Shown: positions 389 to 38,838 of the stretch, one piece after another
Numbering within the stretch: the first letter of the stretch is position 1
Layout: each line of letters opens with the position of its first letter
Virus record (IMG/VR): IMGVR_UViG_3300033076_000885
Span: 1 to 38,838 of that record
Reading direction: 5' to 3' (one strand)
Length of the DNA stretch: 38,838 nt
DNA from: a virus
Taxonomy: Duplodnaviria; Caudoviricetes
The notes under the pieces: model-generated
Seen by the model: only the letters and a program-made list of their open reading frames with translations
What the model was told of the DNA's origin: nothing
Databases searched by the model: none
Position numbers and translations under genes: made by a program

Positions 389-2170
389 ATGGCTAATTCC
401 TACACCAATACCCTCCGCCTTATTGAGATGGGCAACGGCGACCAGTCCGGTACTTGGGGCGCCACGACCAATCAGAATCTTGCCACCCTCCTTTGTCAGG
501 CAATCACAGGGGTGACTACGGTCACACTCTCATCCACAGCCAAAACTCTCACCACATATGATGGTGTTTCCGACGAGTCTAGAAACGCCGTCATCAAGCT
601 TGATGGCACTCCCGGCGGTGCTGCTACCGTCAAGGTGCCTAATAGCTCAAAAGTTTATATATTCTATAACGCAACTTCGGGTGGAAACTCGGTAACAATT
701 GAGAATGCAACTGCCGGAACTGGCAAGGTTACCATTCCCAATGGTGCCACGATGCTCGTCTACACGGACGGGGCAAATGTGTTTGAGGGTATTACAGCCG
801 CGAATGGCGGCGAAATTGTTACAACAACAGGTACACAAACACTCACCAACAAGACACTGACTGCGCCAAAGTTTGCAGACGGTGGTTTCATTGCCGATCC
901 AAATGGCAATGAAATTCTTGTCTTTGATTCGATCGCTTCGGCAGTAAATGAAATCACAGTTGGTAACGCTGCGTCTTCGACCCCGACTGCCACAATCACC
1001 ATCGCATCCCCCTGCGTAGTTACCGTGTCTGCGACACCAGCCAATGGGACGCCACTCACATTCACAACCACAGGCGCACTGCCGACTGGGCTTTCAATCA
1101 ACACCACATATTATGTCAAGTATATTGACTCAACGACATTTAATGTCTCCGCGACACCCGGCGGCGCGTCAATTAACACCAGCGGCTCTCAAAGCGGAAC
1201 TCATACTGCAAACTTTGTTGGTATGCCCATCATCTCGACTAGCGGCACGGGTACAGATATATCCCTGAACCTGACTCCAAAGGGAGCCGGAACTGTTCAG
1301 GTTAATGGCGTAGCCGTCACCACAGTCTCTGGCGCACAGACACTTTCTGATAAAACCTTGGCGGCTCCAAAGTTTGCCGATCTTGGATATATTGCAGACG
1401 CAAATGGAAATGAATTGATTGTCATGGACACAGTTACGTCCGCAGTCAATGAGATTACAGTGGCAAATGCTGCGTCCCCCTCTCTCACGGCAACAATGAC
1501 CATTGCGTCACCCTGCGTGGTTACTGTATCCGCGACACCGGCCAATGGTACGCCCGTATCGTTCTCGACAACCGGTAGCCTCCCAACGGGAATTTCCGCA
1601 GGGACAACATACTACGTTAAGTATGTAAACTCTACTACATTCAACATTTCCGCGACTCCGGGTGGGAGTTCCATCAACACAAGCGGGACTCAGAGCGGGA
1701 CTCATACTGCCAATTTCGTTGGGATGCCAAGCATCTCAACAAGCGGCACCGATACGAATGTTTCCCTCAATCTTACGCCGAAGGGTTCTGGAACCGTTCA
1801 AGTAAATGGCGTTCAGGTTGCCACCATTGCTGATATCCCAAGCGGAAGCACCAGCACACAAAGCACACAAACTGGGTCATATACGCTTGTTTTGACGGAT
1901 GCCGGTAAAACAGTTACGATGGACAGCAGTTCAGCAAACACGCTGACAGTCCCGACAAACGCATCCGTTGCCTTCCCAACAGGAACTCGAATTGACGTTC
2001 TTCAGCTTGGCGCGGGACAGACATCCATTGTCGGTGATACTGGCGTCAACGTATACAAGTACAATATCGCTGTCGGAACTACCGCGAAGATAGCCGGTCA
2101 GTATGCTGCCGCAACCCTGTGGAAACAGGGGACAAACACTTGGTACCTCGTCGGGAATCTGACTACATGA
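389..2170 (+). CDS. Tail fibre / receptor-binding protein with internal duplication
   Basis: N-terminus MANSYTNTLRL..GDQSGTWGATTN is typical of podophage tail fibres. TQTLTNKTL motif, Thr/Ser/Gly-rich, C-terminal YTLVLTDAGK..TLTVP..FPTGT..W domain. Confidence 0.85.
   Translation: MANSYTNTLRLIEMGNGDQSGTWGATTNQNLATLLCQAITGVTTVTLSSTAKTLTTYDGVSDESRNAVIKLDGTPGGAATVKVPNSSKVYIFYNATSGGNSVTIENATAGTGKVTIPNGATMLVYTDGANVFEGITAANGGEIVTTTGTQTLTNKTLTAPKFADGGFIADPNGNEILVFDSIASAVNEITVGNAASSTPTATITIASPCVVTVSATPANGTPLTFTTTGALPTGLSINTTYYVKYIDSTTFNVSATPGGASINTSGSQSGTHTANFVGMPIISTSGTGTDISLNLTPKGAGTVQVNGVAVTTVSGAQTLSDKTLAAPKFADLGYIADANGNELIVMDTVTSAVNEITVANAASPSLTATMTIASPCVVTVSATPANGTPVSFSTTGSLPTGISAGTTYYVKYVNSTTFNISATPGGSSINTSGTQSGTHTANFVGMPSISTSGTDTNVSLNLTPKGSGTVQVNGVQVATIADIPSGSTSTQSTQTGSYTLVLTDAGKTVTMDSSSANTLTVPTNASVAFPTGTRIDVLQLGAGQTSIVGDTGVNVYKYNIAVGTTAKIAGQYAAATLWKQGTNTWYLVGNLTT
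815..1820 (+). repeat. Tandem 501-bp (167-aa) duplication inside the tail fibre
   Basis: ccaaagtttgc occurs at 866 and 1367. Both copies encode APKFAD..TIASPCVVTVSATPANGTP..SLNLTPKGxGTVQVNGV. Confidence 0.9.
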
Positions 2171-2838
2171 GTAACTATGGACTTGGCTTTTTGTCTGCTA
2201 CTGCGCCGTGGGACGGCTCTGCGGCTACAAGTATTTCCTTCACGGATACAGCGTCCAATACAACAAATACAGACGCCTACACATTTACGGGTCAGTCTAT
2301 AGGCTCCGCTGCATCGAATAGGATTGTCGTTGTAAGCGTATATCTTATCGGCGTGAGCAGCACAAAGACTGTCACAATAGGAGGCATTGCGGCCACGGAG
2401 GCAGTAACAAATTATTATTCGACTCCAAACACTTTCCTCGGAATATATTATGCGGCAGTGCCCACAGGCACTACAGCCACGGTTTTTGTTGAGTCTTCTG
2501 GTAAGGCCAACCGGTGCGCGATTTCTGTGTACAGGCTGATTCCAAGCTATTCTTCTTCGGCGCTGTATACAGTCTCCACAACGGCAATTGGAGATGCAAG
2601 TCTAAATGAGATAACTGGTGGTTCGTCTGTGTACGCTTATGTTAGGGACAGCAGCAATTCTTATACCATATCTCGCAACTCATCAACTCTCACCCCTGAT
2701 GTTAGCAGCGTATTTGGAGGGTCCAAGCTTGTAAAGTTTGGCAACTTCCCAGTTACCGGGAACCCAAACGCGCAAAACAATTCTACATATTCCAGCAGCA
2801 CAGCGGATGTTGGGATTGTCGTTGCCCACTGGAGATAA
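2167..2838 (+). CDS. Tail-fibre-associated beta-rich protein
   Basis: ATGA overlap with the tail fibre stop. Ser/Thr-rich, predicted beta-strand sequence. Confidence 0.65.
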   Translation: MSNYGLGFLSATAPWDGSAATSISFTDTASNTTNTDAYTFTGQSIGSAASNRIVVVSVYLIGVSSTKTVTIGGIAATEAVTNYYSTPNTFLGIYYAAVPTGTTATVFVESSGKANRCAISVYRLIPSYSSSALYTVSTTAIGDASLNEITGGSSVYAYVRDSSNSYTISRNSSTLTPDVSSVFGGSKLVKFGNFPVTGNPNAQNNSTYSSSTADVGIVVAHWR

Positions 2839-2839
2839 T

Positions 2840-3199
2840 ATGATTGACGAACTCATCCATCGCGCATTTTGCGCCCGTAACGCAGCCCACTTGGCTCATT
2901 GGAGGACTAAAAGTTTTGCTCAACACATGGCGCTTGGTTCTTTCTATGACGACATCGTGGACGCGACCGATAAGCTTGTCGAGGCTTACATGGGCGCATC
3001 TGGCAAGGTCGTCGAGGACATTGAAATCCCAGCCCTGAAACCGGTGAAGAACATCCTTACTTATCTCAGTGAGGAAGCGAACTGGCTTGAGGAGAATCGC
3101 AATGAAATCTGTGGCGGGGTTTCTGCCTTGGAAAACATTGTTGACGAGATTACCGGCATTTATCTTTCCACAATGTATAAACTGAAGCAGCTTTCGTAA
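2840..3199 (+). CDS. Ferritin/Dps-like four-helix protein (DUF5856-like)
   Basis: GGAG RBS. Motif HLAHWRTKSFAQHMALGSFYD..D.LVE..G and terminal ENIVDEI..STMYKL. Confidence 0.75.
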   Translation: MIDELIHRAFCARNAAHLAHWRTKSFAQHMALGSFYDDIVDATDKLVEAYMGASGKVVEDIEIPALKPVKNILTYLSEEANWLEENRNEICGGVSALENIVDEITGIYLSTMYKLKQLS

Positions 3200-5493
3200 T
3201 GACCGTTGCCAAGCTCAAAATAGCTCCGGGTTATGTCTGGGACTCCACGTTCTACTCAAATACTGGCGGGTGGTACGATGGAGATAAAGTCCGTTTCAGG
3301 AACGGGTTCCCAGAAAAAATCGGCGGGTGGACAAAGTACACGACAGAGGCTTATCTCGGGTCGTGCCGAAATCTGTTCTGCTGGGCGGCGCTCGATGGTA
3401 CCGTTTACACTGGTATGGGTACCAATATTAAGTATTACCTTTCTGGCGGCTCCATTAACGGCCTACAAGACATAACTCCAATTGTATGGACAACAACAAA
3501 ACTTCCTGACGGTTCTGTCGGTGCGGCTGCCCTTACGACAACAAGCGGAAGTACATCCGTAATTGTTTATGATGCGACATACTCGCCGGTGGTCGGGCAG
3601 TATGTTATTATCAGCGGAGCAACTGGGCCCGTAAATAATATCCCAGCAAGTGAGATAAATGCAGAGCATGTAATCACAAGCATCATTGACACCTCTCACT
3701 ACACGATCTCAGTATCGACAGCAGCAAATGCTACAGGTTCTGGCGGCGGGTCAAATGTTAAGGCTGAGTATGAGCTTCAACCGGGCCTGAACGATGTGTC
3801 GTTGAATACGGGCTGGGGCGTTGGGCCTTGGGGTGGCGCCGTTTCTCCCGTTAAATCGACCACACTCAGCGGGGCAATTGCGACATCCTCCAGTTCCGCG
3901 ACAATTACAATCACTTGGACCGGGCATGGTATACCCTCTCCAATCCCCACGACAGCGGGTTCCCCAACATACTGGATTTCCATTTCCGGCGTCACTGGGA
4001 GCGGCACTCCGCCCACGATTGGCGGCATTCCAATCCAGTTTATAAATTCAACATTTCAGGTTGTTTCAGCGCCGACAGCAGATACGCTCACAGTCACAAC
4101 AACGGCTGGTAATGCGTCTCCTGCATTGAGCATCTCTGCCGTTAGCGGTCAGGGCGGATCAAACATATCTGCCGCCTATTGGTCTTCTGCATCAGCAACT
4201 GGATGGGGTGACCCCAATAATGGGCTCGGCGCCAGTGACCAGTTGCGCCTTTGGACATCTGACAACTATGGCGAAAGGCTGATTGCCTGTGTCCGTAACG
4301 GCGGCATTTATGAATGGTCACCGGATTATGCTGAAGGAAGGATGATCAACATCGCCGACGATCCGGTTGCGACCGTTGTTGATGCTCCTGTTGTTGCCAC
4401 TCAAATCATGATGTCTGACATTGGTCAGCACCTTATTGCATTTGGAGCAAATGTTTGGGGTGCCACTCCGGCTGTTCAGGACACAATGAATGTTCGCTGG
4501 TCTGATAGCGAAGACATTTACAACTGGGACGAGGCAGACACCACGAAACTTGCGGGTTCTGTTCGCCTTGGCGTTGGGTCTTTCATCTCAACAGCAGCCC
4601 AGACAAAAGATGAAATTTTGATTTGGACAGACGCCGCGCTTTATTCCATGAAGCCAAGCGGCGACACAAATGTGTTCAACTTCTCCCTTCTGGCGACGAA
4701 TACAAATATTGTCGGCCCGAACTCTGTTGTTATTGCGAACAATACGGCCTTCTGGATGGGCCTCAACAACTTCTATTACTATGATGGCGCCGTATATACG
4801 CTGCCATCCACAGTGCGTGATAAGGTTTTCCTGAGTCTTAACCTTGAGCAATCCTATAAGGTGTTCGCCGGTAAGAACTCGGAGTTTAATGAGGTTACTT
4901 GGTTCTACCCATCCAGCACACTTGTTGATGACGGAAATGGGAACTTGGTGAAAAACACTGAGAATGACTCTTATGTGACGTTTAACTATGTAGACAAGAT
5001 TTGGTACTTCGGAACGATTGCTCGTACAGCTTGGCTTGATGCCGAGTTCAATAATCACCCCCTTGGTGCGACACCAAACGCCGATGGCTATGTTTACGAG
5101 CATGAGGTTGGTGACAACGACGGATCGACTCCGGGCGGGGCACCAATCAATGCGTGGATTCTTTCCAGCCCCGTTGAAATCGAGGATGGGGAGAACTTCT
5201 CTTTTGTTCGCCGTATCATCCCAGACATCACCTTCCGCAATTCTGATCCAACCAAGACCGTTGCGTTCACCATTTACCCACAGAATTACCCCGGCGCCGA
5301 AATTGGTTCTATGGACTCCAACAATGTGAACCTGACCGCTGGTCAGACATACGATTTGGACGTGTATACAAATCAGGTGTTTACACGGTTGCGTGGTCGT
5401 TCTGTTATACTTAGGGTGGAAAGCGACCAGCAGAACATTGCTTGGCGCCTTGGTACACCACGCCTTGAGATTGTTCAGGATGGTCGCAGATGA
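3199..5493 (+). CDS. Tail nozzle / packaged-DNA stabilisation protein
   Basis: GGWYDGDKVRFRNGFPEKIGGW N-terminus, VRWSD, EILIWTD, F.YDG.V..LP, WFYPS and WRLGTPRLEIVQDGRR motifs; position in the tail module. Confidence 0.75.
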   Translation: MTVAKLKIAPGYVWDSTFYSNTGGWYDGDKVRFRNGFPEKIGGWTKYTTEAYLGSCRNLFCWAALDGTVYTGMGTNIKYYLSGGSINGLQDITPIVWTTTKLPDGSVGAAALTTTSGSTSVIVYDATYSPVVGQYVIISGATGPVNNIPASEINAEHVITSIIDTSHYTISVSTAANATGSGGGSNVKAEYELQPGLNDVSLNTGWGVGPWGGAVSPVKSTTLSGAIATSSSSATITITWTGHGIPSPIPTTAGSPTYWISISGVTGSGTPPTIGGIPIQFINSTFQVVSAPTADTLTVTTTAGNASPALSISAVSGQGGSNISAAYWSSASATGWGDPNNGLGASDQLRLWTSDNYGERLIACVRNGGIYEWSPDYAEGRMINIADDPVATVVDAPVVATQIMMSDIGQHLIAFGANVWGATPAVQDTMNVRWSDSEDIYNWDEADTTKLAGSVRLGVGSFISTAAQTKDEILIWTDAALYSMKPSGDTNVFNFSLLATNTNIVGPNSVVIANNTAFWMGLNNFYYYDGAVYTLPSTVRDKVFLSLNLEQSYKVFAGKNSEFNEVTWFYPSSTLVDDGNGNLVKNTENDSYVTFNYVDKIWYFGTIARTAWLDAEFNNHPLGATPNADGYVYEHEVGDNDGSTPGGAPINAWILSSPVEIEDGENFSFVRRIIPDITFRNSDPTKTVAFTIYPQNYPGAEIGSMDSNNVNLTAGQTYDLDVYTNQVFTRLRGRSVILRVESDQQNIAWRLGTPRLEIVQDGRR

Positions 5494-10734: not shown

Positions 10735-13700
10735 ATGGCAAAGATTGTTAATGTTCCGGGCGTTGGGAATTATGCTGTTCCCGACAATGCTACTCAACAG
10801 CAAATTGATAATTTCATCCGGAATGTTTCAGCCAATGGTGGCCTGAAGGCACCGTCTGCGCCCCCGCCTGAAGAGGCAACAGGACAGGGCGGCATTCCGC
10901 TTGTCTCCCCTCTGCTTAGCGGTGCCGCGACCGGCATTGCCGAAATCCCCCTCTCTATCTATGGCCTGTTCGATAAGGAAGGCTCACAGGGCGCCCGTAA
11001 GGCTACCTATGATGTGATCCAGCGCGGCCTCGGCATGAACCCAGAGGCTCAGCCCACAACGACAGAATCTGTCCTTGGGGGCATTGGCTCTTTGGTTCCT
11101 ATGCTCGGTGCCTCTGTCCTTACTGAAGGTGCTGCCACTCCGCTTCTTGCTTCTCGTCTTGGCCTTGGCGGGGCCCGTGCGCTTACCGCTGCCGAAGAGG
11201 CTGCGGCTGCTGCCAAGTTGGCTAGTCAGGCTACCATTGCTCGTACTGCCGGTGGTGCTGCCGCCGCCATTCCGCTTGGCATGGGCCAAGGTCAGCAGAT
11301 GGTGCAGCAGTACGAAGAACAGACTGGGAACAAACTCACGCCCGGCCAGTATACCGCCGCCAATCTTCTGAGCGGTGCCGTCGGCGCATTCGACCTTGCC
11401 CCGCTTGAGCGTTGGGCCGCTCCGGTTGCCAAGCTTCTCGAAAAGGTTCCCGCTTCGGAATCCATCGCGGCGTCTAAGATCGTCAATAACGAGAAGTCCA
11501 AGTTCCTTATGGAAGTGGCCAAGGGTGCCGGTATGGAAGGCGGTCAGGAAGCCGTCAGCCAGATCGCGCAGAACCTTGTTGCCGCCGGTATCTATAATCC
11601 AGATCAGGACATCACCGAAAGCGTTGCCAGTAACTTCAGCCTTGGTGCTGGTGTCGGCGGCATGGTTGAAGCCGCTGTCCTTGGTGCCACGGGCATCAAG
11701 AATCGCAGGATGGCTGCGCGTAACGCCCAGCTTCTTGGCGACGCTAACAACACACGCACAACTGCCCGTGCCGCTATTGAGCAGGGCAAGAATGTTCCGA
11801 ATGCTTCGGACATTGCCGGTCTCACACCGGCCCCATCTCCCATCTCTCGTCCTCTTGGTGATATCGCTACAGATATCAAGAACACAAATGCCGAGCTTGA
11901 TCAGGCGAGGCAGAATCTTCAGTTCTTCCAAGCCACAAGCCCGAATACTAAGAGGGCCATCAAGGGTCAGACGATTGACCTTAGCACCCTCACAGAGCCG
12001 GAAGTCCGTGATCTTGCTCGTCGCCTGAAGATCAAGCCGTCGCAGGACGCTGATCTTCGCACGGCGATTACAGAAAAGACAAATCCAGAACGCATTACGC
12101 AGGAGCTTCTCCGCCAGAAGGTGGACACTCTTCAGGCTCGTTCCAATAGCCTCCAGCGTTCCTTTGATATCGGCGCCTCTACTGGCTCCTCTGCGCCCCG
12201 TGAGAACGTCACTGGTAGCCGTTTCCGTGTTGCCCCGGCGCCTATTGCCACGCATGAGCTTAGCCCGGTTGCCAAGAGTGCCGTCTATGGGAATGTGACG
12301 GAGGCTCCGGCTGACGATATTCGTTCCGTTGCGGATGCTGAAATCGCCGTTCGGGCCGCGCTCTCCAAGAAGGAGATTGCAGGACCCCGCCCAGACACAG
12401 ATCAGATGTCTGACCCGGAGATTGCGGCGCTCATCAATGCTGCCAAGATCAAGGTTCAGAAGAACGAAGACCCGCGCATGGCGGTTAGGGCCGCGACTGA
12501 CAATGTAATTAAGCGCGGTATCCTTAAGCAGGAGCTTGATGCCATTCGCCAGAAGGCGAAGGAGCAGGATCGTTTTGCCGTTGTCGAAGATCAGTTTGAC
12601 TCAGAAGGCAAAAAGATCGGTGAGGCAGTTATCAACCGTCACAGGGACGAAGCCGCCGCCAATGAAAGCGCCCAGCTTTTCAATGAGGCCGCTGACCCCC
12701 TGAAGTATCAGGCTCGTGTCGCCCCGATTGGCCGCGCCCTCCGCAATGTTTTGACCGGCATGAACCTGCCGGATGTCGGCATCCAGCTTCAGCAGCGCAT
12801 TGGTAACCCCGGAGAATATATCGAAGGGCAGTATGATCCAGCGGGGAACCTGATCCAGATTGCCACCGGTCTCTATAAGCCCGGCATGACAGAGGCCCAG
12901 CTTGAGGCCAAGATCGTCAGCGTTATGCACCATGAAATCATTCACTCCCTGAAGGAGATGGGTGTTTTCAAGCCGCACGAATGGAACCGTCTGCTCAAGG
13001 CTATCGGCTCCCAGAAGATGCATGGCAAGTTGTATACACCCTTGGATTGGGTGACGCAGCTTCGTACCGATCTGGTTGAGAAGGCCATGAACGGTGACGA
13101 GTCGGCTGCGGAAGAGCTTCACGAAGAAGCCGTTGCTGAAATGTTCCGCGATTGGATGGCCAATGGCCGGACCCCGACCCCGGTTGGCGGTCTGCTTTCT
13201 CGCATTCTTAATATCATCAAGCGCATCGTCGGCGTCTCCCGCACCCACAAGGCGGAAGGCATCTTCCGGGCAATTGCCTCTGGCAAGATTGGCGCCCGTG
13301 AGCGCGTGGCTCGGGAAGCCCCACAGGTGGCCACAGAGGCCCCTTCGGCCCCGTCCGCACCAACCACTGCCGCCCCCGTCGAAACAGCCCCCAGCGCGGC
13401 TCCTGTGGCCCCGGAAGAGCCCGTCATCAAGGGTATGCGGTTTGCTCCACGTCCCTCTGAGACCGGCGCCGAGATGGCTCCGGCCCCGTCCCCGGTTGAC
13501 CTTCGCCTTCCTCCATCTGAGCGTGTGTCTCAGGCCGCTGGTATCGCAGAAGCTGCGCGTCCCGTGTGGGAGCGTTCCGTGTCTGGCCCAATGGCGCCAG
13601 AGATTGCTCCTGCCATTCAGGCGGTTCCGGACATTTTCAAGGGCGTTAAGTTCTCCAAGGTTAATCTATCTAAAGAAGCAGACAAGGCGTTTAGGGAATT

Positions 13701-16700
13701 GGCTAGGGCGCAGCAAAGCGGTGACCCTGAAATGTATATGGAATTTGCACAAAAGGCGCTAAGGGAGTATGAAAGCGGCCCTGCTCTGACATACGCAATG
13801 GAGCATGTCGGTGACTTGACGCACCGCATGGGACAGTACGGCAATGAATATCCTCAATATGAATTTGGCATAGAGTACGTTGCGCCGAAAGTTAGAACTG
13901 GTTTGCGTGTTGTAACAAATCCAGTTGATGCAGAAAGAATAGCAAAGCTCCCTGACGATCCAACATTGAAAAACTATGCGGATGCTCACGCAAAACTAAA
14001 AGTTTACAATGAGGCGCAGAGGGCGGCTCGTGATGCTGCCGTTTCCCTTGGTCGTAAGGACCTAAAAGAAGCAGAAAGAAATCTACTCATCCTTCAGAAG
14101 ATGATTGATAACGGAACCTATGTAGAAGTTGCTGGTTCCTATGACCCGAATTATGAGGACAATAGCAAGAAGTTGTCCAAGGTCAACATCAACAAGCTGG
14201 ACCCGGCAGACTATATGCCGCGCGACTTCCTGCCTATCTCCACAATTAACCTGCTGCACCGGGCGCAGGGTCCGGGTCTTAGTGAGCGTTTTAAGGGTGG
14301 CTATCGGAACAAGCTTGAGGCGGGGCGCTATATTCAGTCGCTCTACGAAGCCATGCGCGAAGAGGTCCGCAAACGTGGTGGGAATCTGCCAACAGACATG
14401 ACAGCCCAGAACGATGAGAATGCCGATTTGATTTCGGATGTTCTCACTGGCGAAGCCGTTGCCGCGCTTCAAAAGGCCGACAATGCGATTGGCTGGTATG
14501 ATGCCAAGCTAAAGGCGGCTAAGCGCGTAATGGCGCTTATCCACCCAGAAATCCTCACCAATCCAGAAATGGAGGCTGCGTTTGATGCAGCCATTGCCAT
14601 CACATCAAATGGCATGGCTGTGGTTGACAACTTCCGCGAGGGCCTCCGGCAGTACGAATACTACAAGAAGCACAAGCGTTTTCAGGAAGTCGGGACCGGT
14701 GATCAGGGTAGTGCGATGGCCACGCATTTTGCGCGGCTCAATTACATCCTGAAGGAACTTGGCGTCAAGGATGCCAATCGCTTCCTCGTGACCGAATATA
14801 CCGTTGGTGAGCTTCGCCGGATGGGGTGGCCGATTAGCGGCGAAAACGTAGACACAAAGGTCTACGGGAGCTTTATCTTTGGCCCGAAGATTGGTCAGGG
14901 TTTCTACCAGAACCTCCGTGGCAATTACGATCCACTTACGATGGACCGTTGGTTCATGCGTATGTGGAATCGCATTACCGGAAACCCATTTAAGACCCCC
15001 AAGTCTGAAGAGCGGATGCTTGAGAACCGGCTTAACATCAAGCGGGAAATCCTTAACGATAAGGAAATTTCCAAGGTTGACCGGAAGATTATTGATGAGG
15101 CTGGTAAACTTTTCTTCGGGAAGACAAAGTTCAAAGGTCTTGTGAAGTCTCTCAACCCCAACACAGATGCTGGGGCGGAGAAGCTTGATAACTTTGTCAA
15201 AGCTATTGAACGTCGCTACCAGTCTTATTACACAAAGTTTAACAAGGAAAAGACCGACAAGGCGCTCAAGCCAGAAAAGAGCGACCTGATGAAGGCTATT
15301 GGCACACACGTTGATAACGTCAACGGTGAGCTTCAGGAAGACCCGCGCAATGGAACTGAGCGTGAATACATCCGTCAGGTTGTTTCCCGCGCCATTGATA
15401 AGCTTGGGCGTCTCGGCATCAAGATCAACACAGCCGATTTCCAAGCCTTGGTTTGGTATCCAGAAAAACAGTTGTGGCGGGAGCGGTTTGGTGTTAAGCC
15501 GGGCCGTGGCGAGGATAATGATTACGCCGACGCCGCAAAAATTGTAGCGAAAGAAAAGGGCATCAGTGATGCAAAAATCCAAAACGCACTCTCCGCAGGT
15601 AACCGAAAGGGAGTCGGTGCTGCTGTCAATGCCGGAAGAGGAGTTCCGGGCAGCAGTGCAAAACCTCAAGAATCACTTCGCAAGGGATTCACAGGTAAGC
15701 AAAAAGAACAACTGACGGAAGAGCTTAAGAAGCGTAAACTCTTCTCAGCCGTTGATGTGGGCGTTCCTCTTTCTCCGGAATTGCAGGAAGCCTTCAACAA
15801 CTCGTTTGCTCCCCGCGTTCAGAAGTCTTTCTTCGAGTCCCTGACCGATCTGTTCACGGGCGACAGCCTTCTGCGGATGACGACCAACATCTTCGACAAG
15901 GACGCAATCAACCTGTTCACGGAAGAGCGCCTGAACGGGCAGCGCCTTACTGGTGCCTACTCTGCGACAGTTGCTGTCCATATGGCCCGTCGTGCTGGTA
16001 CTGTTGGCGCGGCTGCAATCTTCAATGGTGTTGCCCCCGTCCAGTTCAAGGAGAAGGGGAACATCCTCTCTGCCTATATCCGCTCGGCCAACCCCGGCGA
16101 GAACAAGGATGCCATCGCTAAGTTCATGGCTCCCATCTATAAGAACGGGCTCCAGAAGCAATTCGCCCTTTACGGCATCGCCAAACGCGCCAAGTCCAAG
16201 CCCGGCATGAAGATTGTCAACATGGACGAGGCTCAGATTGATGCGGCCATCCGTCTTGGCAATCAGCATCCAGAGGTCAAGGAAGCCTTCGAGGCTTACC
16301 AGCGGCACAACCGCAACCTGATCAATATGGTTGTGGAGTCAGGGCGCATTGCTCCGGAAGAGGCTGACGCTATGCTGGAAGACCTCAACTACTACGGCGC
16401 CTATCGCGTCTATAAGGATGAGGCTTATACCCCCAAGACCGGCGGAAGCATTGGCAGCGGCAGCAAGATCGAGAAGCTCTCGGGCATGAGCGACGAGAAG
16501 ATTCTTGATGACCCGATTGAAATCATGATCCGCAACCAGATGTTCTGGATCAATGCCGCGATGAAGAACATTGCCGCCATCAAGTCTGCCAACCTCGCCG
16601 TGACGGCGCAGGAAGCCAAGCTTGTTAAGGGCGACGTTCCTGCCGGTGCCTACACGATGGTTGCCTACGAGAACGGCAAGAAGAAGACCTATATGTTTGA

Positions 16701-18384
16701 GGGTCCTCGCGCCGCCATCTGGTATACGTCCCTTCGCGCCACAGATAAGATCGACTGGAGCGGGGCCATGAAGTATCTGGGCCTCCCGGCCCGTGTTCTT
16801 CGTGCGTCCGTGACCCATGATCCGGGCTTCATTCTCGCTAACTTGTTCCGCGACGCATTCTCCACATGGGGTCTGCGTGGCGAAAAGGTTGCCCCGTGGG
16901 AGACATTCTTCTCTTTCGCTGAGTCCCTCAAGGGCTCTACTGCGCTTGATGCCATGAGGGCATTCGGCATTGGTGGCGGCTACGATGAAGCGATGAAGGA
17001 CCCCGAGACACAGGCCAAGATGGTGGCCGGTAAGCTTTCTCCGGGCGTTCATATGATGAGCAACCCATTCTCCCTCGTGAAGGGATTGATGGGCCGTCTG
17101 GAATCCCTCTCTGAAGCCTCTGATGCTGCGACACGCCTTGCCGTGTTCAAGAAGGTGATGGAAGAGACCGGTGATGAGGCGGAAGCCGCCTACCGTGCAT
17201 TGGAGATCATGAACTTCTCCAAGCAGGGCGCCAGTTCTGTTGTCCAGATTATCAGTCAGCTTGTGCCGTTCTTCAACGCCGGTCTTCAGGGCAAGTACGT
17301 TCTCAGCAAGGGGCTTTACGCCCTCGGCAAGGGTGTCTCACGGGGCGGCTTCGAAACCCTCACCCCGGAAGAGCGTCGCCTTGGCGTTGGCGTACTCTAC
17401 CGTGGTGCCATGATGTCGGCTCTGGCCTTGGCTCTTGAGCAGCTTTGTGGCGGCGATGACCAGTACGAGGACCGTGTGGCTCCGTACCAGCGCGAGACGA
17501 GCTTTATCATCCCGCTCAAGTATTTCGGTATGCCGGGCACGTTCGTCTCGATCCCGAAGCCATTCGAATTTGGCACCATGTTTGCCACAATTCCTGTGGC
17601 CTTCTATCGGTATGCAACAAACCCGAATGAGTCGGGCGCCGACCTGACCCGCACGATGACGACCCAGATGTCCACAAACTTCGGCATCAATGTGATCCCG
17701 CCGATCTTCGTGCCCTTCATCGAGCAGTATTTCAACACCGACCTCTACACCGGTCAGCCACTGGTTGGCCGTGGTAAGCAATCCCTTGACCCAAGCCTTC
17801 AGTACAACTCCAGCACTGGTGAGTTCTCGAAGATGCTTGGCAACAAGAAGGTCTTCTACAACGTGGAGAGCGGTGAGTGGGAAGGTATCCCGCCGATCTT
17901 CGTCCAGAACTACATCCAGTCCTTCGGTGGACCCCTCGGCTCCTACCTGCTTCTGGCGGCTGATGCTGCCACCGCCGGTTCCGGTGTGGAAACCCTCAAG
18001 GCTTCGACCCCGATCACCAAGTACCCGGTCATCCGGCGCTTCCTGATCGACGCTAAGGAGCAGAACCCAGTCGGCGCCGACACTCTGTATAAGATGATCG
18101 GCAAGATTGATGAGGTGAACCGCACCCTCGCCTACTACAAGAAGATTGGCGATATCGAGGGCTACAAGGAATACGTTCAGGAGAAGATGCCGCTCATCAA
18201 GAACAAGGGCGCCATCAAGGCTCTCGCGGATGTCCAGAAAGAACTCCGCGACCGCGATACGGCCATCAACGAAAGCAAAAAGCTCACCCCGGATGAAAAG
18301 CGGGATGAGCTTCGGAAGGTGAACGATATCGAGGCTAAGTACCTGAACGAGATCAGGCGCCTGAAGATGGAGCTTGGGATGTGA
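10735..18384 (+). CDS. Large polyvalent / internal virion protein (zincin-like metallopeptidase, HhH-like module, LPD38-like C-terminus)
   Basis: 2549 aa. MHHEIIH..EEAVAE metallopeptidase motif. GWY..AITS..GPKIG..FYQNL.G..TMDRWF module. C-terminal N.FRD..NFS..G..VPFFNA.LQG..IPKPFEFG..P.IE...N.D.YTG.P.V motifs. Confidence 0.8.
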   Translation: MAKIVNVPGVGNYAVPDNATQQQIDNFIRNVSANGGLKAPSAPPPEEATGQGGIPLVSPLLSGAATGIAEIPLSIYGLFDKEGSQGARKATYDVIQRGLGMNPEAQPTTTESVLGGIGSLVPMLGASVLTEGAATPLLASRLGLGGARALTAAEEAAAAAKLASQATIARTAGGAAAAIPLGMGQGQQMVQQYEEQTGNKLTPGQYTAANLLSGAVGAFDLAPLERWAAPVAKLLEKVPASESIAASKIVNNEKSKFLMEVAKGAGMEGGQEAVSQIAQNLVAAGIYNPDQDITESVASNFSLGAGVGGMVEAAVLGATGIKNRRMAARNAQLLGDANNTRTTARAAIEQGKNVPNASDIAGLTPAPSPISRPLGDIATDIKNTNAELDQARQNLQFFQATSPNTKRAIKGQTIDLSTLTEPEVRDLARRLKIKPSQDADLRTAITEKTNPERITQELLRQKVDTLQARSNSLQRSFDIGASTGSSAPRENVTGSRFRVAPAPIATHELSPVAKSAVYGNVTEAPADDIRSVADAEIAVRAALSKKEIAGPRPDTDQMSDPEIAALINAAKIKVQKNEDPRMAVRAATDNVIKRGILKQELDAIRQKAKEQDRFAVVEDQFDSEGKKIGEAVINRHRDEAAANESAQLFNEAADPLKYQARVAPIGRALRNVLTGMNLPDVGIQLQQRIGNPGEYIEGQYDPAGNLIQIATGLYKPGMTEAQLEAKIVSVMHHEIIHSLKEMGVFKPHEWNRLLKAIGSQKMHGKLYTPLDWVTQLRTDLVEKAMNGDESAAEELHEEAVAEMFRDWMANGRTPTPVGGLLSRILNIIKRIVGVSRTHKAEGIFRAIASGKIGARERVAREAPQVATEAPSAPSAPTTAAPVETAPSAAPVAPEEPVIKGMRFAPRPSETGAEMAPAPSPVDLRLPPSERVSQAAGIAEAARPVWERSVSGPMAPEIAPAIQAVPDIFKGVKFSKVNLSKEADKAFRELARAQQSGDPEMYMEFAQKALREYESGPALTYAMEHVGDLTHRMGQYGNEYPQYEFGIEYVAPKVRTGLRVVTNPVDAERIAKLPDDPTLKNYADAHAKLKVYNEAQRAARDAAVSLGRKDLKEAERNLLILQKMIDNGTYVEVAGSYDPNYEDNSKKLSKVNINKLDPADYMPRDFLPISTINLLHRAQGPGLSERFKGGYRNKLEAGRYIQSLYEAMREEVRKRGGNLPTDMTAQNDENADLISDVLTGEAVAALQKADNAIGWYDAKLKAAKRVMALIHPEILTNPEMEAAFDAAIAITSNGMAVVDNFREGLRQYEYYKKHKRFQEVGTGDQGSAMATHFARLNYILKELGVKDANRFLVTEYTVGELRRMGWPISGENVDTKVYGSFIFGPKIGQGFYQNLRGNYDPLTMDRWFMRMWNRITGNPFKTPKSEERMLENRLNIKREILNDKEISKVDRKIIDEAGKLFFGKTKFKGLVKSLNPNTDAGAEKLDNFVKAIERRYQSYYTKFNKEKTDKALKPEKSDLMKAIGTHVDNVNGELQEDPRNGTEREYIRQVVSRAIDKLGRLGIKINTADFQALVWYPEKQLWRERFGVKPGRGEDNDYADAAKIVAKEKGISDAKIQNALSAGNRKGVGAAVNAGRGVPGSSAKPQESLRKGFTGKQKEQLTEELKKRKLFSAVDVGVPLSPELQEAFNNSFAPRVQKSFFESLTDLFTGDSLLRMTTNIFDKDAINLFTEERLNGQRLTGAYSATVAVHMARRAGTVGAAAIFNGVAPVQFKEKGNILSAYIRSANPGENKDAIAKFMAPIYKNGLQKQFALYGIAKRAKSKPGMKIVNMDEAQIDAAIRLGNQHPEVKEAFEAYQRHNRNLINMVVESGRIAPEEADAMLEDLNYYGAYRVYKDEAYTPKTGGSIGSGSKIEKLSGMSDEKILDDPIEIMIRNQMFWINAAMKNIAAIKSANLAVTAQEAKLVKGDVPAGAYTMVAYENGKKKTYMFEGPRAAIWYTSLRATDKIDWSGAMKYLGLPARVLRASVTHDPGFILANLFRDAFSTWGLRGEKVAPWETFFSFAESLKGSTALDAMRAFGIGGGYDEAMKDPETQAKMVAGKLSPGVHMMSNPFSLVKGLMGRLESLSEASDAATRLAVFKKVMEETGDEAEAAYRALEIMNFSKQGASSVVQIISQLVPFFNAGLQGKYVLSKGLYALGKGVSRGGFETLTPEERRLGVGVLYRGAMMSALALALEQLCGGDDQYEDRVAPYQRETSFIIPLKYFGMPGTFVSIPKPFEFGTMFATIPVAFYRYATNPNESGADLTRTMTTQMSTNFGINVIPPIFVPFIEQYFNTDLYTGQPLVGRGKQSLDPSLQYNSSTGEFSKMLGNKKVFYNVESGEWEGIPPIFVQNYIQSFGGPLGSYLLLAADAATAGSGVETLKASTPITKYPVIRRFLIDAKEQNPVGADTLYKMIGKIDEVNRTLAYYKKIGDIEGYKEYVQEKMPLIKNKGAIKALADVQKELRDRDTAINESKKLTPDEKRDELRKVNDIEAKYLNEIRRLKMELGM

Positions 18385-27579: not shown

Positions 27580-27606
27580 AAAAAAAGGGCGGGGTTTCCC
27601 CCGCCC
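27580..27606 (-). terminator. Rho-independent terminator of the early operon
   Basis: Minus strand reads GGGCGGGG-GAAA-CCCCGCCC-TTTTTTT. Confidence 0.88.
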
Positions 27607-29621: not shown

Positions 29622-30524
29622 TCAAGCTGCGGCGCTGTCCTCGCCCTCGCCCTCGTGATCATCATCATCAGATGCTGCGAGGATGAAGTCGGTTGCGGCT
29701 TGTGCAAGAGACGCAGCTTTCATGAAAGCTTTGTCGTCGTCGCGCAGAACCTTGATCCAATTCGCAAGGTACTCGGGATGTTGAAGCTTACCGTTCACGC
29801 GATGAGCGGCGCAGAGAAAGGCGCTTGTCAATTCAGCGACAAGTTCTTCCGCAGCATATGATGCCGAGCCAAACCGCCCAGTGAGGTTGCGATCTAGGCG
29901 AGACGCATGGCCTGTCCAATGCCCGGCCTCGTGAAAGAACGTGGCCAATGCGGCGGCGTCCTCGTTAAAGGCGGCGGCGGTGGGCATCTGCACAATGTCG
30001 AGCGCGGGAATGTAACAGGCAACATTGCCACCGATCTGCAGATGCATGTTGATCTTCTCGGCGATCTCACGAGCCGTCATGTCCGCTGTTGTTTCGCGCA
30101 GCTCGATCACCTTGCGCTTGGGCAACGTGATGTTCTCGCACTGCTCGACGTTGAACATCTTCGAGAGCTTGATGAGCGGGATGGTCTTGATCTTTTCAGC
30201 GCCCGTCTCAGACCGTTCTTTGATGGTGAGCTTTTTGAAGTAGACCACATCAAGCGATGACCTCTCACCCTTTCGGACATTGCCGCCCAGAGCTTGGGCT
30301 TGGCGGTACGTGAGCCACCCGTTGCTGGTATAACCGCCCTTGGATGCGGCAACCCAGCCCAGCACCGTGTTGATGCCGCGATATGCGCGGCCGGTGAGCG
30401 CATTGTGAGGCATGGCGGAAACGTCACCGGGTAAGTCTTTCCACGGCTTCACCCAAGGAGCAGCGCCGGAGCGCATGGCATCGAGGATGGTGGCGGTGAT
30501 CTCGGCATAAGCGATATTCGACAT
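29622..30524 (-). CDS. ardC: Antirestriction protein ArdC (ssDNA-binding domain plus zincin-like metalloprotease)
   Basis: PW.KPW, N..TGR.YRGIN, W.TYRQA..LGGNVRKGE, FN..Q, HE..HWTGH..RL.R and YA.EELVAEL motifs. Confidence 0.93.
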   Translation of the reverse strand: MSNIAYAEITATILDAMRSGAAPWVKPWKDLPGDVSAMPHNALTGRAYRGINTVLGWVAASKGGYTSNGWLTYRQAQALGGNVRKGERSSLDVVYFKKLTIKERSETGAEKIKTIPLIKLSKMFNVEQCENITLPKRKVIELRETTADMTAREIAEKINMHLQIGGNVACYIPALDIVQMPTAAAFNEDAAALATFFHEAGHWTGHASRLDRNLTGRFGSASYAAEELVAELTSAFLCAAHRVNGKLQHPEYLANWIKVLRDDDKAFMKAASLAQAATDFILAASDDDDHEGEGEDSAAA

Positions 30525-30551
30525 TCTCTTTCTCTCTTTCTTTCTATTTCT

Positions 30552-30603
30552 GATCTCATCAGGCAGCGCCTTACGCTGCGACGGGCCGGAGCCCGTTTCG
30601 ATC
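30552..30603 (-). ncRNA. Type II hammerhead ribozyme
   Basis: Minus strand reads GAUC-GAAA-CGGGC(UCCG)GCCCG-UC^-GCAGCG(UAAGG)CGCUGC-CUGAUGA-GAUC. Complete core, three stems, GUC cleavage triplet. Confidence 0.92.
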
Positions 30604-31005
30604 TCAAACACCGGCGAGAACCTCGGCGCGGTTTTCTGTGCGGCGCTTCTCGATGACGCCCACGATGATGCCCATCCGCTCGATGGCGGCGGCGGCGCTT
30701 TCTGCGTCGGCGATCTCGGCAGCGATCTCGGCATCAGTCCAACACTCGACGATGCTGTCCCATCCCTCCGAGTAGTGGGCGTGGGCGTGATCCTTCACGG
30801 CTGCGACATTGTTGAGCAGCGCCACCAATGCATCCTCCATGCGCTCGACAATGTGATCGGCTTGATCGGGCCTTGCGGTGCGCGAGATCGGCACACCGGC
30901 ATCGAGCAGTAGCTGCTCGGCGAAGAGATATCTCTCTTCCGAGATGCCGAAAGCAGTTGCGTTGTCCCATGTCGCTGCGGCGGCGATGATAGCGGTGATG
31001 TTCAT
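30604..31005 (-). CDS. Hypothetical early protein
   Basis: AAAGAAAGAGAGAACATC-ATG leader. C-terminal A..HY..GWD..VECW pattern. Confidence 0.75.
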   Translation of the reverse strand: MNITAIIAAAATWDNATAFGISEERYLFAEQLLLDAGVPISRTARPDQADHIVERMEDALVALLNNVAAVKDHAHAHYSEGWDSIVECWTDAEIAAEIADAESAAAAIERMGIIVGVIEKRRTENRAEVLAGV

Positions 31006-31022
31006 GATGTTCTCTCTTTCTT

Positions 31023-31256
31023 TCAGTATTGATTGCGGATCAGGAAGTCGATCAGGGCGTTGCGATCACCCGTCTTTATTTTCCCGCGATGTAACGGGCG
31101 CAGGTTGATGTAGCTGGTGAGATGGCCGTCGATCATGATCTCACCGATCATGTTCTCGGCGGCATCGCGCAGCGCAGCCATTCGTGCATATGCTTTTCCG
31201 TCGCGGCGTATCATCGCGGCGAAGCGGCGCTCAAGACGTTCTTCGTCGTTCATCAT
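31023..31256 (-). CDS. Hypothetical early protein
   Basis: GGAG RBS; packed in the operon. Confidence 0.65.
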   Translation of the reverse strand: MMNDEERLERRFAAMIRRDGKAYARMAALRDAAENMIGEIMIDGHLTSYINLRPLHRGKIKTGDRNALIDFLIRNQY

Positions 31257-31261
31257 TTCAT

Positions 31262-31447
31262 TCACTCCACAAACAACGGGCGCATCGCCCGGCAGATGAA
31301 ATGGAAATCGCGCACCACATCATCAGGCACATCAGGCTCGGCTCTCATCTGTAGCTCATCGTCGATGACATACAGCGCATCAAGAAGGGATGAGCGCCCG
31401 GCCCAGTCCGTCACGTTGGTGATGGCAGATTGCAATTTGTCGGTCAT
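31262..31447 (-). CDS. Hypothetical early protein
   Basis: GAAAAGAGAGAACGAC-ATG leader. Confidence 0.65.
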   Translation of the reverse strand: MTDKLQSAITNVTDWAGRSSLLDALYVIDDELQMRAEPDVPDDVVRDFHFICRAMRPLFVE

Positions 31448-31463
31448 GTCGTTCTCTCTTTCT

Positions 31464-31649
31464 TCAGATGGCGTTGATGTTCGCGACGAGGTAGAGCATG
31501 GCATCGCTGCCCTGCTGCGTTTTGTCGGCATCGCGCCGAGCGCAGATATCGCCGTTGCGGCGGATCACCATCGTCGATGCATCCCATTGGCTGCTGCTTT
31601 CCAAAAATGCACGAGCGGCAGCACGAAGATTTTTGCTTACGGTTTTCAT
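31464..31649 (-). CDS. Hypothetical early protein, first clear gene of the operon
   Basis: AAAGAAAGAGAGAATAGAA-ATG leader directly after the second hammerhead. Confidence 0.65.
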   Translation of the reverse strand: MKTVSKNLRAAARAFLESSSQWDASTMVIRRNGDICARRDADKTQQGSDAMLYLVANINAI

Positions 31650-31675
31650 TTCTATTCTCTCTTTCTTTGTTTGCT

Positions 31676-31733
31676 GATCATCATCAGGCAGCGCGTCACG
31701 CTGCGACGCCATCCTCCACATGGCGTTTCGATC
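31676..31733 (-). ncRNA. Type II hammerhead ribozyme (extra U after A9)
   Basis: Minus strand reads GAUC-GAAA-CGCCAU(GUGGAGG)AUGGCG-UC^-GCAGCG(UGACG)CGCUGC-CUGAUGA-U-GAUC. Confidence 0.88.
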
Positions 31734-31751
31734 TGTTGATATTGCCTCGGA

Positions 31752-31945: not shown

Positions 31946-32303
31946 CAGATTCACGATGAGAAAGAGCAGCAACAGGAACCCGAATATAGCGAGAGCCGGG
32001 GAACAGCACCAGAACGAACTTTTAGTTGAGTGTTGCCGCAAATGCTCCACAAATGGTTGTTAGGACTATAGTCCACCCTGGCATGTTATTTATTCCTATG
32101 CGATTGTCAGTGCACGGATGATCATTTGATCCGTGGGCTGATCATAGATGATCAGTGGGCTGATGAAAGAAAGCGAGAATATCGGGCCCCGTGCGCCCAG
32201 CGGCCCAGAGCGACATTTCAGCCCTGTCTCCACATGCCGTAGAATAGAAAGCAGATAGAGCGGCACACATATACATGGCGCCAAACGAATAAAGGATGAT
32301 CAG

Positions 32304-38762: not shown

Positions 38763-38838
38763 CGGGGCGTAGCGCAGTCTGGTAGCGCATCTGCTTTGGG
38801 AGCAGAGGGTCAGGAGTTCGAATCTCTTCGCCCCGACC
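38763..38838 (+). tRNA. tRNA-Pro (anticodon TGG)
   Basis: Acceptor stem CGGGGCG/CGCCCCG, D arm GCGC-AGTCTGGTA-GCGC, anticodon arm TCTGC-TTTGGGA-GCAGA, GTTCGAATC T loop. Ends ACC at the window edge. Confidence 0.95.

What the first reader, a model, noticed from the sequence alone, without database searches (positions are those of the whole stretch)
30524..31733. Candidate system: ribozyme-defined standard leaders that partition the early anti-defence transcript
Seen: both hammerheads cut exactly 55 nt before an ATG (30579 to 30524 and 31704 to 31649). Both keep stem I identical (GCAGCG/CGCUGC, different 5-nt loops), while stem III differs in sequence but stays paired, which indicates selection on structure. 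Each downstream product would begin with a 5'-OH hairpin, then CUGAUGA(U)GAUCAG and the purine-rich RBS. Inference: a natural self-processing insulator cassette, analogous to engineered ribozyme insulators and to RNase III processing of T7 early mRNA but independent of host enzymes. It would yield a four-gene mRNA of about 1125 nt and a separate ardC-led mRNA, both shielded from 5'-monophosphate-dependent decay. The fragment between the cuts would carry 5'-OH and 2',3'-cyclic phosphate ends, so RtcB-type ligation could circularise it. I cannot establish novelty without a search.
Basis: partly seen in the sequence, partly recalled or inferred. Interest (0 to 1): 0.92.

Follow-up and report, generated by a model that had tools for sequence, protein, structure and literature searches.

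The report
Self-locking hammerhead ribozymes punctuate phage operon
Two hammerhead-ribozyme motifs sit just before genes in a phage's likely early operon and are predicted to cut its long message into hairpin-capped pieces, a layout known since 2011; both also carry a conserved five-base tail, which I did not find described, that can pair with the catalytic core and would likely lock the ribozyme shut after cutting.

Summary
Both type II hammerheads are real. The predicted cuts lie before 31704 and 30579 (- strand), each 55 nt from an ATG, and would release a 1,125-nt four-gene piece and an ardC-led piece. They belong to a very large phage family (about 500 distinct copies recovered). In it a start codon follows within 80 nt (240 of 273; control 28%) and the upstream stop codon abuts stem II (158 of 217; control 2.5%). 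55 nt is not fixed (median 53; neighbours equal in 6 of 94; close relatives 58-59), stem I varies, anti-defence genes are a minority, and circles get little support. Perreault 2011 already reported clustered prophage hammerheads, one set around ardA, and this scan has noted such arrays in hundreds of genomes. What I did not find described: no pseudoknot, a conserved U·A contact, and in about a third of viral copies, both of these included, a downstream RUCAG that pairs with core CUGAN. It covaries with N7 (U:A 48, C:G 35, U:G 4, C:A 0 across clusters), so it is likely a post-cleavage lock. Activity is untested. New variant of a known kind.

The parts
31674..31734 (-). HH1, type II hammerhead with an extra U after A9 (31680). 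Predicted cut between C31705 and G31704. Conserved A at 31734 and loop-I U at 31698 (likely U·A tertiary pair). Lock: core CUGAU 31687-31683 can pair with AUCAG 31678-31674.
   Evidence: sequence; descriptor scans; fold of the 3' product, z -4.1; predicted probability of a lock pair 0.995; extra U in 45 of 280 family members, always U
31650..31673 (-). A-rich unstructured leader with the purine-rich motif GAAAGAGAGAA (31665-31655), a likely ribosome-binding site
   Evidence: the same motif, with at most one mismatch, precedes five genes of the operon, with or without a ribozyme (31665, 31462, 31020, 30540, 29578); predicted unpaired
31464..31649 (-). ORF, 61 aa, no family; absent from this position in close relatives
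   Evidence: joint 31464-31672 in contigs of runs X2, X3, X4, X6, X8
31262..31447 (-). ORF, 61 aa, no family
31023..31253 (-). ORF, 76 aa, weak match to phrog_16256 (unknown function)
   Evidence: E 8e-7
30604..31005 (-). ORF, 133 aa, no family; the last base of its stop codon TGA (30606-30604) is the conserved A of HH2
30550..30604 (-). HH2, canonical type II hammerhead. Predicted cut between C30580 and G30579. Lock: CUGAU 30562-30558 with AUCAG 30554-30550, which uses 3 of the 4 bases of the stem II 3' arm.
   Evidence: fold of the 3' product, z -3.3; lock pair probability 0.992
30525..30549 (-). purine-rich leader and likely ribosome-binding site of ardC
29622..30524 (-). ardC, 300 aa: ArdcN plus zincin-like MPTase-PolyVal domain, with an intact HExxH motif (HEAGH)
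   Evidence: Pfam PF08401 E 1.5e-31, PF18818 E 1e-39; phrog_7245 anti-restriction E 1e-75; motif read
27587..27606 (-). intrinsic terminator-like site (8 G-C pairs, then a T run); likely end of the operon, so the ardC-led piece would be about 3.0 kb with six ORFs
32083..32110 (-). weak sigma-70-like promoter candidate (CTGACA-16-TAACAT), about 380 nt upstream of HH1, divergent from the terminase small subunit gene
   Evidence: not above chance (3 sites found, 4.3 expected); terS

Best explanation
Two type II hammerhead motifs sit just upstream of ribosome-binding-site-like leaders in a likely early operon of this phage and are predicted to cut its long transcript on their own into a 1,125-nt four-gene message and an ardC-led message, after which a five-base tail would likely fold back onto the catalytic core and lock it shut. 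Step by step: (1) Shown in sequence: intact cores, three stems, and the layout [stop codon]-ribozyme-[RBS-ATG]. (2) Inferred from tested type II hammerheads: self-cleavage during or soon after transcription, giving a 2',3'-cyclic phosphate and a 5'-OH. Folding is likely helped by a U(loop I)·A(5' of stem II) pair instead of a pseudoknot. (3) Follows from type II geometry: the upstream piece keeps stem III as a 3' hairpin, the downstream piece starts with stem I and no unpaired 5' base, and only the 4-bp stem II holds the two together. (4) Inferred from covariation: RUCAG pairs with CUGAN and competes with stem II, which would release the products, block re-ligation and hide the single-stranded core. 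(5) Inferred purpose: to give each gene block its own stable, context-independent leader without host nucleases, so that genes can be gained, lost and swapped as modules, like a natural RiboJ.
For: Family layout: start codon within 80 nt in 240 of 273 vs 28% at random points. Upstream ORF stop within -6..+1 of stem II in 158 of 217 vs 2.5%. Up to 9 copies per 4 kb, confined to one cluster per genome in 5 records searched whole. Stem I pairs in 100% of cells with changes on both sides in all 6 pairs. A before stem II in 273 of 280, not imposed by any pattern; loop-I U in 70 of 71 rows where it was not imposed. This matches the reverse-Hoogsteen U·A pair of viroid and satellite hammerheads (PMC2632901). 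Lock: NUCAG in the tail of 96 of 272 vs 6.6% background. AG follows an RUC arm in 33 of 50 vs 28 of 222 other arms. N7 against the tail base over 88 single-state blastn clusters: U:A 48, C:G 35, U:G 4, C:U 1, C:A 0 (p 3e-20); 7 more clusters carry two or more states. U·G without C·A points to RNA pairing on the sense strand. The next base avoids pairing into stem I: 5 of 115 vs 22.6 expected, 0 of 20,000 shuffles as low. Lock pair probability above 0.5 in 78 of 88 3' products. Activity of relatives: tandem prophage hammerheads cut in vitro and in E. coli (PMC3088659), and type II hammerheads cut in D. vulgaris cells (PMC8782182). RiboJ raises mRNA about 2-fold and protein 2-10-fold (PMC6206723). 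Close relatives gain and lose genes at the repeated leaders.
Against: No RNA data: cleavage, stability and the lock are untested here. By nearest-neighbour energies the lock is as stable as or more stable than stem II closure (window -4.3 and -3.3 vs -2.3 and -2.2 kcal/mol; more stable in 40 of 88), so it could inhibit cutting beforehand instead. Two thirds of viral copies and 109 of 121 copies from bacterial genomes lack it, so it is optional. Only one of the five lock pairs can covary. Removing the lock in silico does not change RBS access (0.63 vs 0.62, p 0.13, n 75), and cutting raises it only slightly (0.59 to 0.63). RNase J can degrade 5'-OH RNA, as for glmS (PMC3997798). 'Early' rests on gene content and position; the promoter candidate is not above chance.
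Confidence: 0.6

Rival explanations
1. The lock is a switch that acts before cleavage. It competes with stem II during transcription, and a ribosome ending at the upstream stop codon covers the 5' arm of stem II and favours the locked fold. Cutting would then be partial or depend on upstream translation, like an attenuator.
For: The lock is predicted to be 1-2 kcal/mol more stable than stem II closure in both window ribozymes and forms in the minimum-energy fold of uncut HH2. The upstream stop abuts stem II in 158 of 217. The lock avoids growing into stem I, which suggests a tuned balance.
Against: The lock is not enriched where a stop abuts (55 of 70 vs 103 of 147, p 0.25). No convincing ORF ends at HH1, which still has the lock. 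Nearest-neighbour energies ignore the core and tertiary contacts that stabilise the active fold. Stop adjacency may be simple genome compaction.
Confidence: 0.18
2. Cutting serves to shut expression down. It uncouples or destabilises the downstream early genes, as glmS cleavage does through RNase J, limiting host-toxic early proteins in time.
For: RNase J1 degrades the 5'-OH glmS product (PMC3997798, passages). Different stabilities of processed pieces have been proposed (PMC6765202, passages).
Against: The 5' end is fully base-paired by one or two hairpins. A dedicated RBS follows almost every copy. RiboJ-type ends raise expression in E. coli (PMC6206723).
Confidence: 0.1
3. The piece between two ribozymes is ligated into a circular mRNA, by RtcB or by a hybrid hammerhead formed from HH2's 5' half and HH1's 3' half.
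For: Both stem II arms are GAUC, so a hybrid could form. 76 of 105 adjacent pairs have compatible stem II vs 31% of random pairs.
Against: That 2.3-fold excess is no larger than the excess for stem I identity (14 of 105 vs 6%) or stem III starts (40 of 105 vs 5%), so common descent explains it; 29 of 105 pairs are incompatible. 119 of 167 locus-strands hold a single ribozyme in the stretch fetched. The lock hides the core. A ligated junction would be an intact ribozyme able to cut again. Perreault 2011 detected no circular or spliced products.
Confidence: 0.06
4. The cassettes are mostly hitch-hiking repeats and DNA recombination joints for shuffling early genes, and cleavage matters little.
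For: Contigs of relatives join or skip at the repeated leaders (31464-31672 and 31450-31009). Downstream genes are unrelated to each other.
Against: Cores are intact while stems vary with compensation, which lowers DNA identity between copies. U·G-tolerant covariation points to selection on RNA.
Confidence: 0.06

Closest known systems
Clustered type II hammerhead ribozymes of prophages (Perreault et al. 2011, PMC3088659; Rfam RF02276 Hammerhead_II)
   Same: Type II topology, canonical core, several copies flanking single genes or short blocks of changing identity, proposed processing into operon- or gene-length mRNAs, and a case next to an anti-restriction gene (ardA in Agrobacterium and Legionella).
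   Different: Their type II consensus has a loop I/3'-tail pseudoknot and often a 2-bp stem II. These have a 6-bp stem I, a 5-nt loop, a 4-bp stem II, no pseudoknot excess (6.3% vs 6.5% shuffled), a conserved U and A, and the core-pairing tail. RF02276 misses both window copies and passes only 3 copies in 20 loci rich in them. The type II pages of the paper's Dataset S1 were cut and not seen.
U(L1.1)·A(3' of loop 2) reverse-Hoogsteen contact of sTRSV, CChMVd and Schistosoma hammerheads (Dufour et al., PMC2632901)
   Same: A U at the 5' side of loop I and an A stacked next to stem II, both nearly invariant.
   Different: Here loop 2 is open (type II), so the A is the base just 5' of stem II and is often part of the upstream stop codon. 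The contact is inferred from conservation, not seen in a structure.
RiboJ synthetic insulator (PMC6206723)
   Same: A self-cleaving ribozyme removes upstream RNA and leaves a hairpin-capped 5' end plus a second hairpin before the RBS.
   Different: RiboJ is engineered, has one fixed sequence and sits after a promoter. These are natural, lie between genes, vary in spacing (5th-95th percentile 40-72 nt), and the second hairpin is made from the catalytic core itself.
RNase III processing of the T7 early transcript (recalled, not checked here)
   Same: An early polycistronic phage RNA is cut at gene junctions into hairpin-ended messages.
   Different: That needs a host enzyme and leaves 5'-phosphate ends. 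Here the RNA would cut itself and leave a 5'-OH.
glmS ribozyme (PMC3997798, PMC6765202)
   Same: Self-cleavage in a 5' leader that leaves a 5'-OH on the coding piece.
   Different: glmS is ligand-gated and destabilising. No ligand site is evident here, and the new 5' end is base-paired.

Membership tests
Hammerhead ribozyme class | Core C3 U4 G5 A6 N7 G8 A9, G12 A13 A14, A15.1-U16.1, H17 | tested here: met
   Both have CUGAUGA, GAAA and GUC. HH1 has one extra U after A9, as in 45 of 280 family members.
Hammerhead ribozyme class | Three stems closing the core, with G10.1-C11.1 | tested here: met
   Stem I 6 bp, stem II 4 bp, stem III 7 and 6 bp; family-wide compensation in stem I.
Hammerhead ribozyme class | Self-cleavage 3' of H17 | not testable with these tools
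   Needs an assay; relatives are active in PMC3088659 and PMC8782182.
Type II hammerhead | Stems I and III closed by loops, stem II open | tested here: met
Rfam RF02276 Hammerhead_II (pseudoknotted consensus) | Score at or above gathering (37 bits) | tested here: not met
   No hit at gathering or at E<=10.
Rfam RF02276 Hammerhead_II (pseudoknotted consensus) | Loop I / 3'-tail pseudoknot of 4 bp or more | tested here: not met
   Window loops UGACG and UAAGG do not pair with their tails. Family-wide 6.3% vs 6.5% with shuffled partners.
Hammerheads with the U·A loop-loop contact | 5' U of loop I paired with the A next to stem II | tested here: inconclusive
   Both bases are present and nearly invariant (A 273 of 280; U 70 of 71 where not imposed). 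Invariant bases cannot show covariation, and there is no structure.
Clustered phage/prophage hammerheads (Perreault 2011) | Two or more hammerheads flanking genes or short gene blocks in a phage genome | tested here: met
   Two copies flank four ORFs in a virus record with integrase, terminase small subunit and virion genes.
   Median 53; 23 of 412 equal 55; adjacent pairs equal in 6 of 94; 58-59 nt in close relatives.
   2 of 150 downstream proteins are anti-restriction and 110 have no PHROG hit, so unknown anti-defence genes are not excluded. 0 of 9 ardC loci found by protein search have one upstream and 1 has one downstream.
ArdC | ArdcN domain plus zincin-like domain with HExxH | tested here: met
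ArdC | Anti-restriction activity | not testable with these tools
   Shown for plasmid R388 ArdC (PMC7213743, search listing only).

The most novel reading that the evidence does not exclude
A widespread subfamily of phage hammerheads has a built-in second fold. The tail that pairs with the catalytic core is a conformational switch, set by the ribosome that stops on the codon overlapping stem II. The phage would thereby decide, gene junction by gene junction and without any protein of its own, whether its early message is cut and then locked irreversibly: a translation-gated, one-way ribozyme.
Probability: 0.2. Interest if true: 0.78.

Novelty: new variant of a known kind. Interest (0 to 1): 0.45.

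Why it matters
Why phages carry self-cleaving ribozymes is still an open question (PMC6155905, PMC6765202). This family gives it a quantitative anatomy (stop codon, ribozyme, RBS, start) and a handle for experiments. The core-pairing tail can be broken and restored at one neutral core base (N7), which separates 'irreversible processing', 'regulated cutting' and 'circle formation' in a few assays. The family is large (about 3,200 stored viral stretches match the loose pattern, chance matches included) and mostly invisible to Rfam. It is also a natural library of compact insulators of about 55-60 nt. The two ribozymes in this window are ordinary members of it.

Tried and rejected
Fixed 55-nt spacing: rejected. 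Stem I sequence as a conserved signal: rejected; GCAGCG is not among the 12 commonest 5' arms of 370 copies found without imposing it, so the identity here most likely reflects local duplication. Loop I pseudoknot: no excess. The tail pairing with loop I instead of the core: only 16 of 55 such loops start UGA, near the overall 24%. The tail as a DNA palindrome: spacer length varies and U·G occurs while C·A does not. Lock as RBS opener: no predicted effect. Lock linked to upstream stop: p 0.25. A dedicated ardC circuit: not supported. ardC homologues lie within 3 kb in 9 of the 92 loci found with this window's stem I and in none of the 136 loci of the general pattern, so the link is lineage-bound. 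Further ribozymes in the window: none by descriptor, pattern or Rfam. An ORF ending at HH1: candidates lack coding-like codon GC. Expression: no RNA holder listed. A relative contig joins an HH2-like 5' half to an HH1-like leader (run X3); it carries a different stem I and the run is guessed to be DNA, so I read it as another ribozyme copy, not a circle junction. Close cultured relatives: none (best primase-helicase match 36%). Host: a GcrA-domain gene suggests an alphaproteobacterium, not established. Literature searches that showed no paper on the core-pairing tail, read as listings. Scan-note searches with no hit. Subscription papers (Roth 2014, Weinberg 2015, Jimenez 2011) and the type II part of Perreault's Dataset S1 were not seen and may bear on novelty.
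Full report
Context. The window is a whole 38.8-kb virus record, 67% complete by CheckV. It encodes virion proteins, an integrase, a primase-helicase, a terminase small subunit and a GcrA-domain protein, so it is likely a temperate tailed phage, perhaps of an alphaproteobacterium. No close cultured relative was found. On the minus strand, divergent from terS, a run of small genes goes from about 31650 to a terminator-like site at 27606-27587. It includes ardC (PF08401 + PF18818). Calling it an early operon is an inference from gene content and position.

Observation. Both hammerheads are there as described: type II, intact cores, cuts predicted before 31704 and 30579, each 55 nt from an ATG, with 1,125 nt and four ORFs between them. 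They are the only two in the record. The descriptor gave 1 hit in total in 200 shuffles of the window and 0 in reversed loci. Rfam does not find them.

The family. Three pattern scans of IMG/VR and one of GTDB genomes returned 92, 136, 123 and 130 loci; a protein search added 9. A structure filter kept 278 + 106 distinct viral copies and 121 from bacterial genomes of many phyla. The patterns imposed either this stem I or a 17-nt stem-loop I with U at loop position 1; one search also imposed UCAG, but neither N7 nor the base before UCAG. Among the first 280 copies (the window's two included), a start codon with an RBS-like signal follows within 80 nt in 240 of the 273 with room, against 28% from random points. 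An upstream ORF of 50 codons or more stops within -6..+1 of stem II in 158 of the 217 with 400 nt upstream, against 2.5% at random. HH2 shows this: the stop codon of the 133-aa gene supplies the A before stem II. Arrays reach 9 copies in 4 kb and sat in one cluster in each of 5 records searched whole. So the ribozyme-plus-RBS cassette is a real, recurring unit.

What is not conserved. The cut-to-start distance has median 53, with 5th-95th percentile 40-72, and 23 of 412 equal 55. Neighbours agree exactly in 6 of 94 pairs. Contigs of close relatives in five runs lack the first gene and put HH1 58-59 nt before the second (my count from the joints). Stem I varies with full compensation. Of 150 downstream proteins scanned (picked from 188 of 60 aa or more, near-duplicates and most short loci dropped), 2 hit anti-restriction families, 38 other families and 110 nothing. 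ardC has a ribozyme directly upstream in L023/L027, only a 3' half in L003/L070, one directly downstream in L020, L023, L033, L042 and L101, and none upstream in the 9 loci (6 distinct upstream sequences) found by protein search.

Structure. Unlike the published type II consensus, this group shows no loop-tail pseudoknot. It keeps an A just 5' of a 4-bp stem II (273 of 280) and a U at the start of loop I (70 of 71 where not imposed). These are the two bases of the reverse-Hoogsteen pair described for viroid and satellite hammerheads (PMC2632901, passages); the contact itself is inferred. An extra U after A9, as in HH1, occurs in 45 of 280 copies. That such an insertion is tolerated in a viroid hammerhead is recalled, not checked.

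The lock. Folding the predicted 3' products gave a second hairpin, core CUGAU with a downstream AUCAG, in both ribozymes. Across the family NUCAG lies in the tail of 96 of 272 copies against 6.6% background. Where it overlaps stem II, AG follows an RUC arm in 33 of 50 copies against 28 of 222 for other arms. Where it lies beyond stem II, its first base tracks the free core base N7: U:A 48, C:G 35, U:G 4, C:U 1, C:A 0 over 88 single-state clusters of loci (blastn, ribozymes masked), and 7 further clusters carry two or more states. The fresh sample alone gave U:A 46, C:G 40, U:G 5, C:U 1. In a 60-row alignment of copies chosen for having the tail, that pair reads UA 35, CG 23, UG 2; the other four pairs cannot vary. 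The base after the tail avoids pairing into stem I (5 of 115 against 22.6 expected). This fold excludes the active ribozyme. Against giving it too much weight: it is absent from two thirds of viral copies and from 109 of 121 genome copies; it does not change predicted RBS access; and its energy is close to that of stem II, so computation cannot say whether it acts before or after the cut.

Mechanism. Most likely the RNA cuts itself at gene junctions. Type II geometry leaves stem III as a 3' hairpin on the upstream piece (family median -12 kcal/mol) and stem I as a fully paired 5'-OH end on the downstream piece. The lock would then displace the 4-bp stem II, release the products and prevent re-ligation, which full-length hammerheads catalyse well (PMC6155905, passages). 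The result would be separately stable, context-independent messages, which suits a region where genes come and go at repeated leaders. Rivals are a pre-cleavage switch gated by the upstream ribosome (0.18), destabilisation as in glmS (0.10), circles (0.06) and mere recombination repeats (0.06). Protection from RNase E and RppH by a paired, non-phosphorylated 5' end follows from known decay pathways, but RNase J can start at a 5'-OH (PMC3997798, passages).

Prior knowledge. Perreault et al. 2011 (PMC3088659; I read the abstract, passages, parts 1-2 of Results, part 1 of the Discussion and the supplement legends, and ran two supplement searches) reported clustered hammerheads flanking genes in prophages and proposed processing into gene-length mRNAs. 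They showed cutting in vitro and in E. coli for a triple set around ardA, and found no circles. Olzog et al. 2021 (PMC8782182; passages and part 1 of section 7) showed type II cleavage in D. vulgaris cells near phage-like genes. Reviews call the purpose open (PMC6765202 and PMC6155905, passages). RiboJ: PMC6206723, passages. PMC13725137 (passages) concerns eukaryotic RNA viruses and added nothing. This scan has 596 notes in at least 469 genomes matching the hammerhead-phage-early words, and 17 with ardC; these are unchecked leads. I found neither a paper nor a scan note on the core-pairing tail (paper listings 14, 15, 35, 36, 47, 62, 66; notes 39, 69, 82). The type II pages of Perreault's Dataset S1 were cut, subscription papers were not searchable, and one note (e1-6061571) mentions an undescribed extra hairpin that I could not compare.

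Verdict. The pseudoknot-free geometry and the covarying lock make it a new variant of a known kind. Interest 0.45.

Noticed in passing
window 29613-29587 (-): A 12-bp G+C-rich hairpin directly after the ardC stop, followed by the same A-rich leader and RBS motif. This junction uses a plain hairpin where others use a ribozyme.
   Followed up: partly
window 32155-32063 (-): Inverted repeats at 32155-32138 and 32135-32113, three TGATCA sites and a 12-bp palindrome at 32074-32063 around the promoter candidate; possible operators between terS and the small-gene operon.
   Followed up: no
window 32090-31735 (-): About 355 nt of apparently non-coding, strongly folding leader before HH1 (MFE -124 kcal/mol, no shuffle control), present with indels in relatives. 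It could be a small RNA that HH1 cuts off.
   Followed up: partly
window 38763-38836 (+): tRNA gene at the end of the record; the anticodon reads UGG (Pro) by eye.
   Followed up: no
L493 (Streptomyces phage Celia, MN062705.1) 1475-4660: A cultured phage with six unannotated pseudoknot-type type II hammerheads between small genes near the genome end, one directly before an annotated OCR-like anti-restriction gene; a ready test system.
   Followed up: partly
L024:3004 (47,399-bp record, same length as Burkholderia phage BcepB1A, hit H3): A likely cultured phage carrying the lock-type ribozyme with the extra U, before a pyrophosphatase-family gene.
   Followed up: no
L003:2952-3100 and L070; L025; L042:3021: Copies with an intact 3' half (stem I, core, RBS) but a missing, displaced or much enlarged 5' half, two of them before ardC; possibly decayed or discontinuous hammerheads.
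   Followed up: no
L373-L492 (gut MAG contigs: Gastranaerophilales, Bacteroidales, Bacilli and others): A near-identical ribozyme with a long conserved stem III, before genes with similar N-termini, appears in bins of several phyla; one mobile element or mis-binned phage family.
   Followed up: no
window 10735-18384 (+): 2,549-aa virion-region protein with an LPD38 domain.
   Followed up: no
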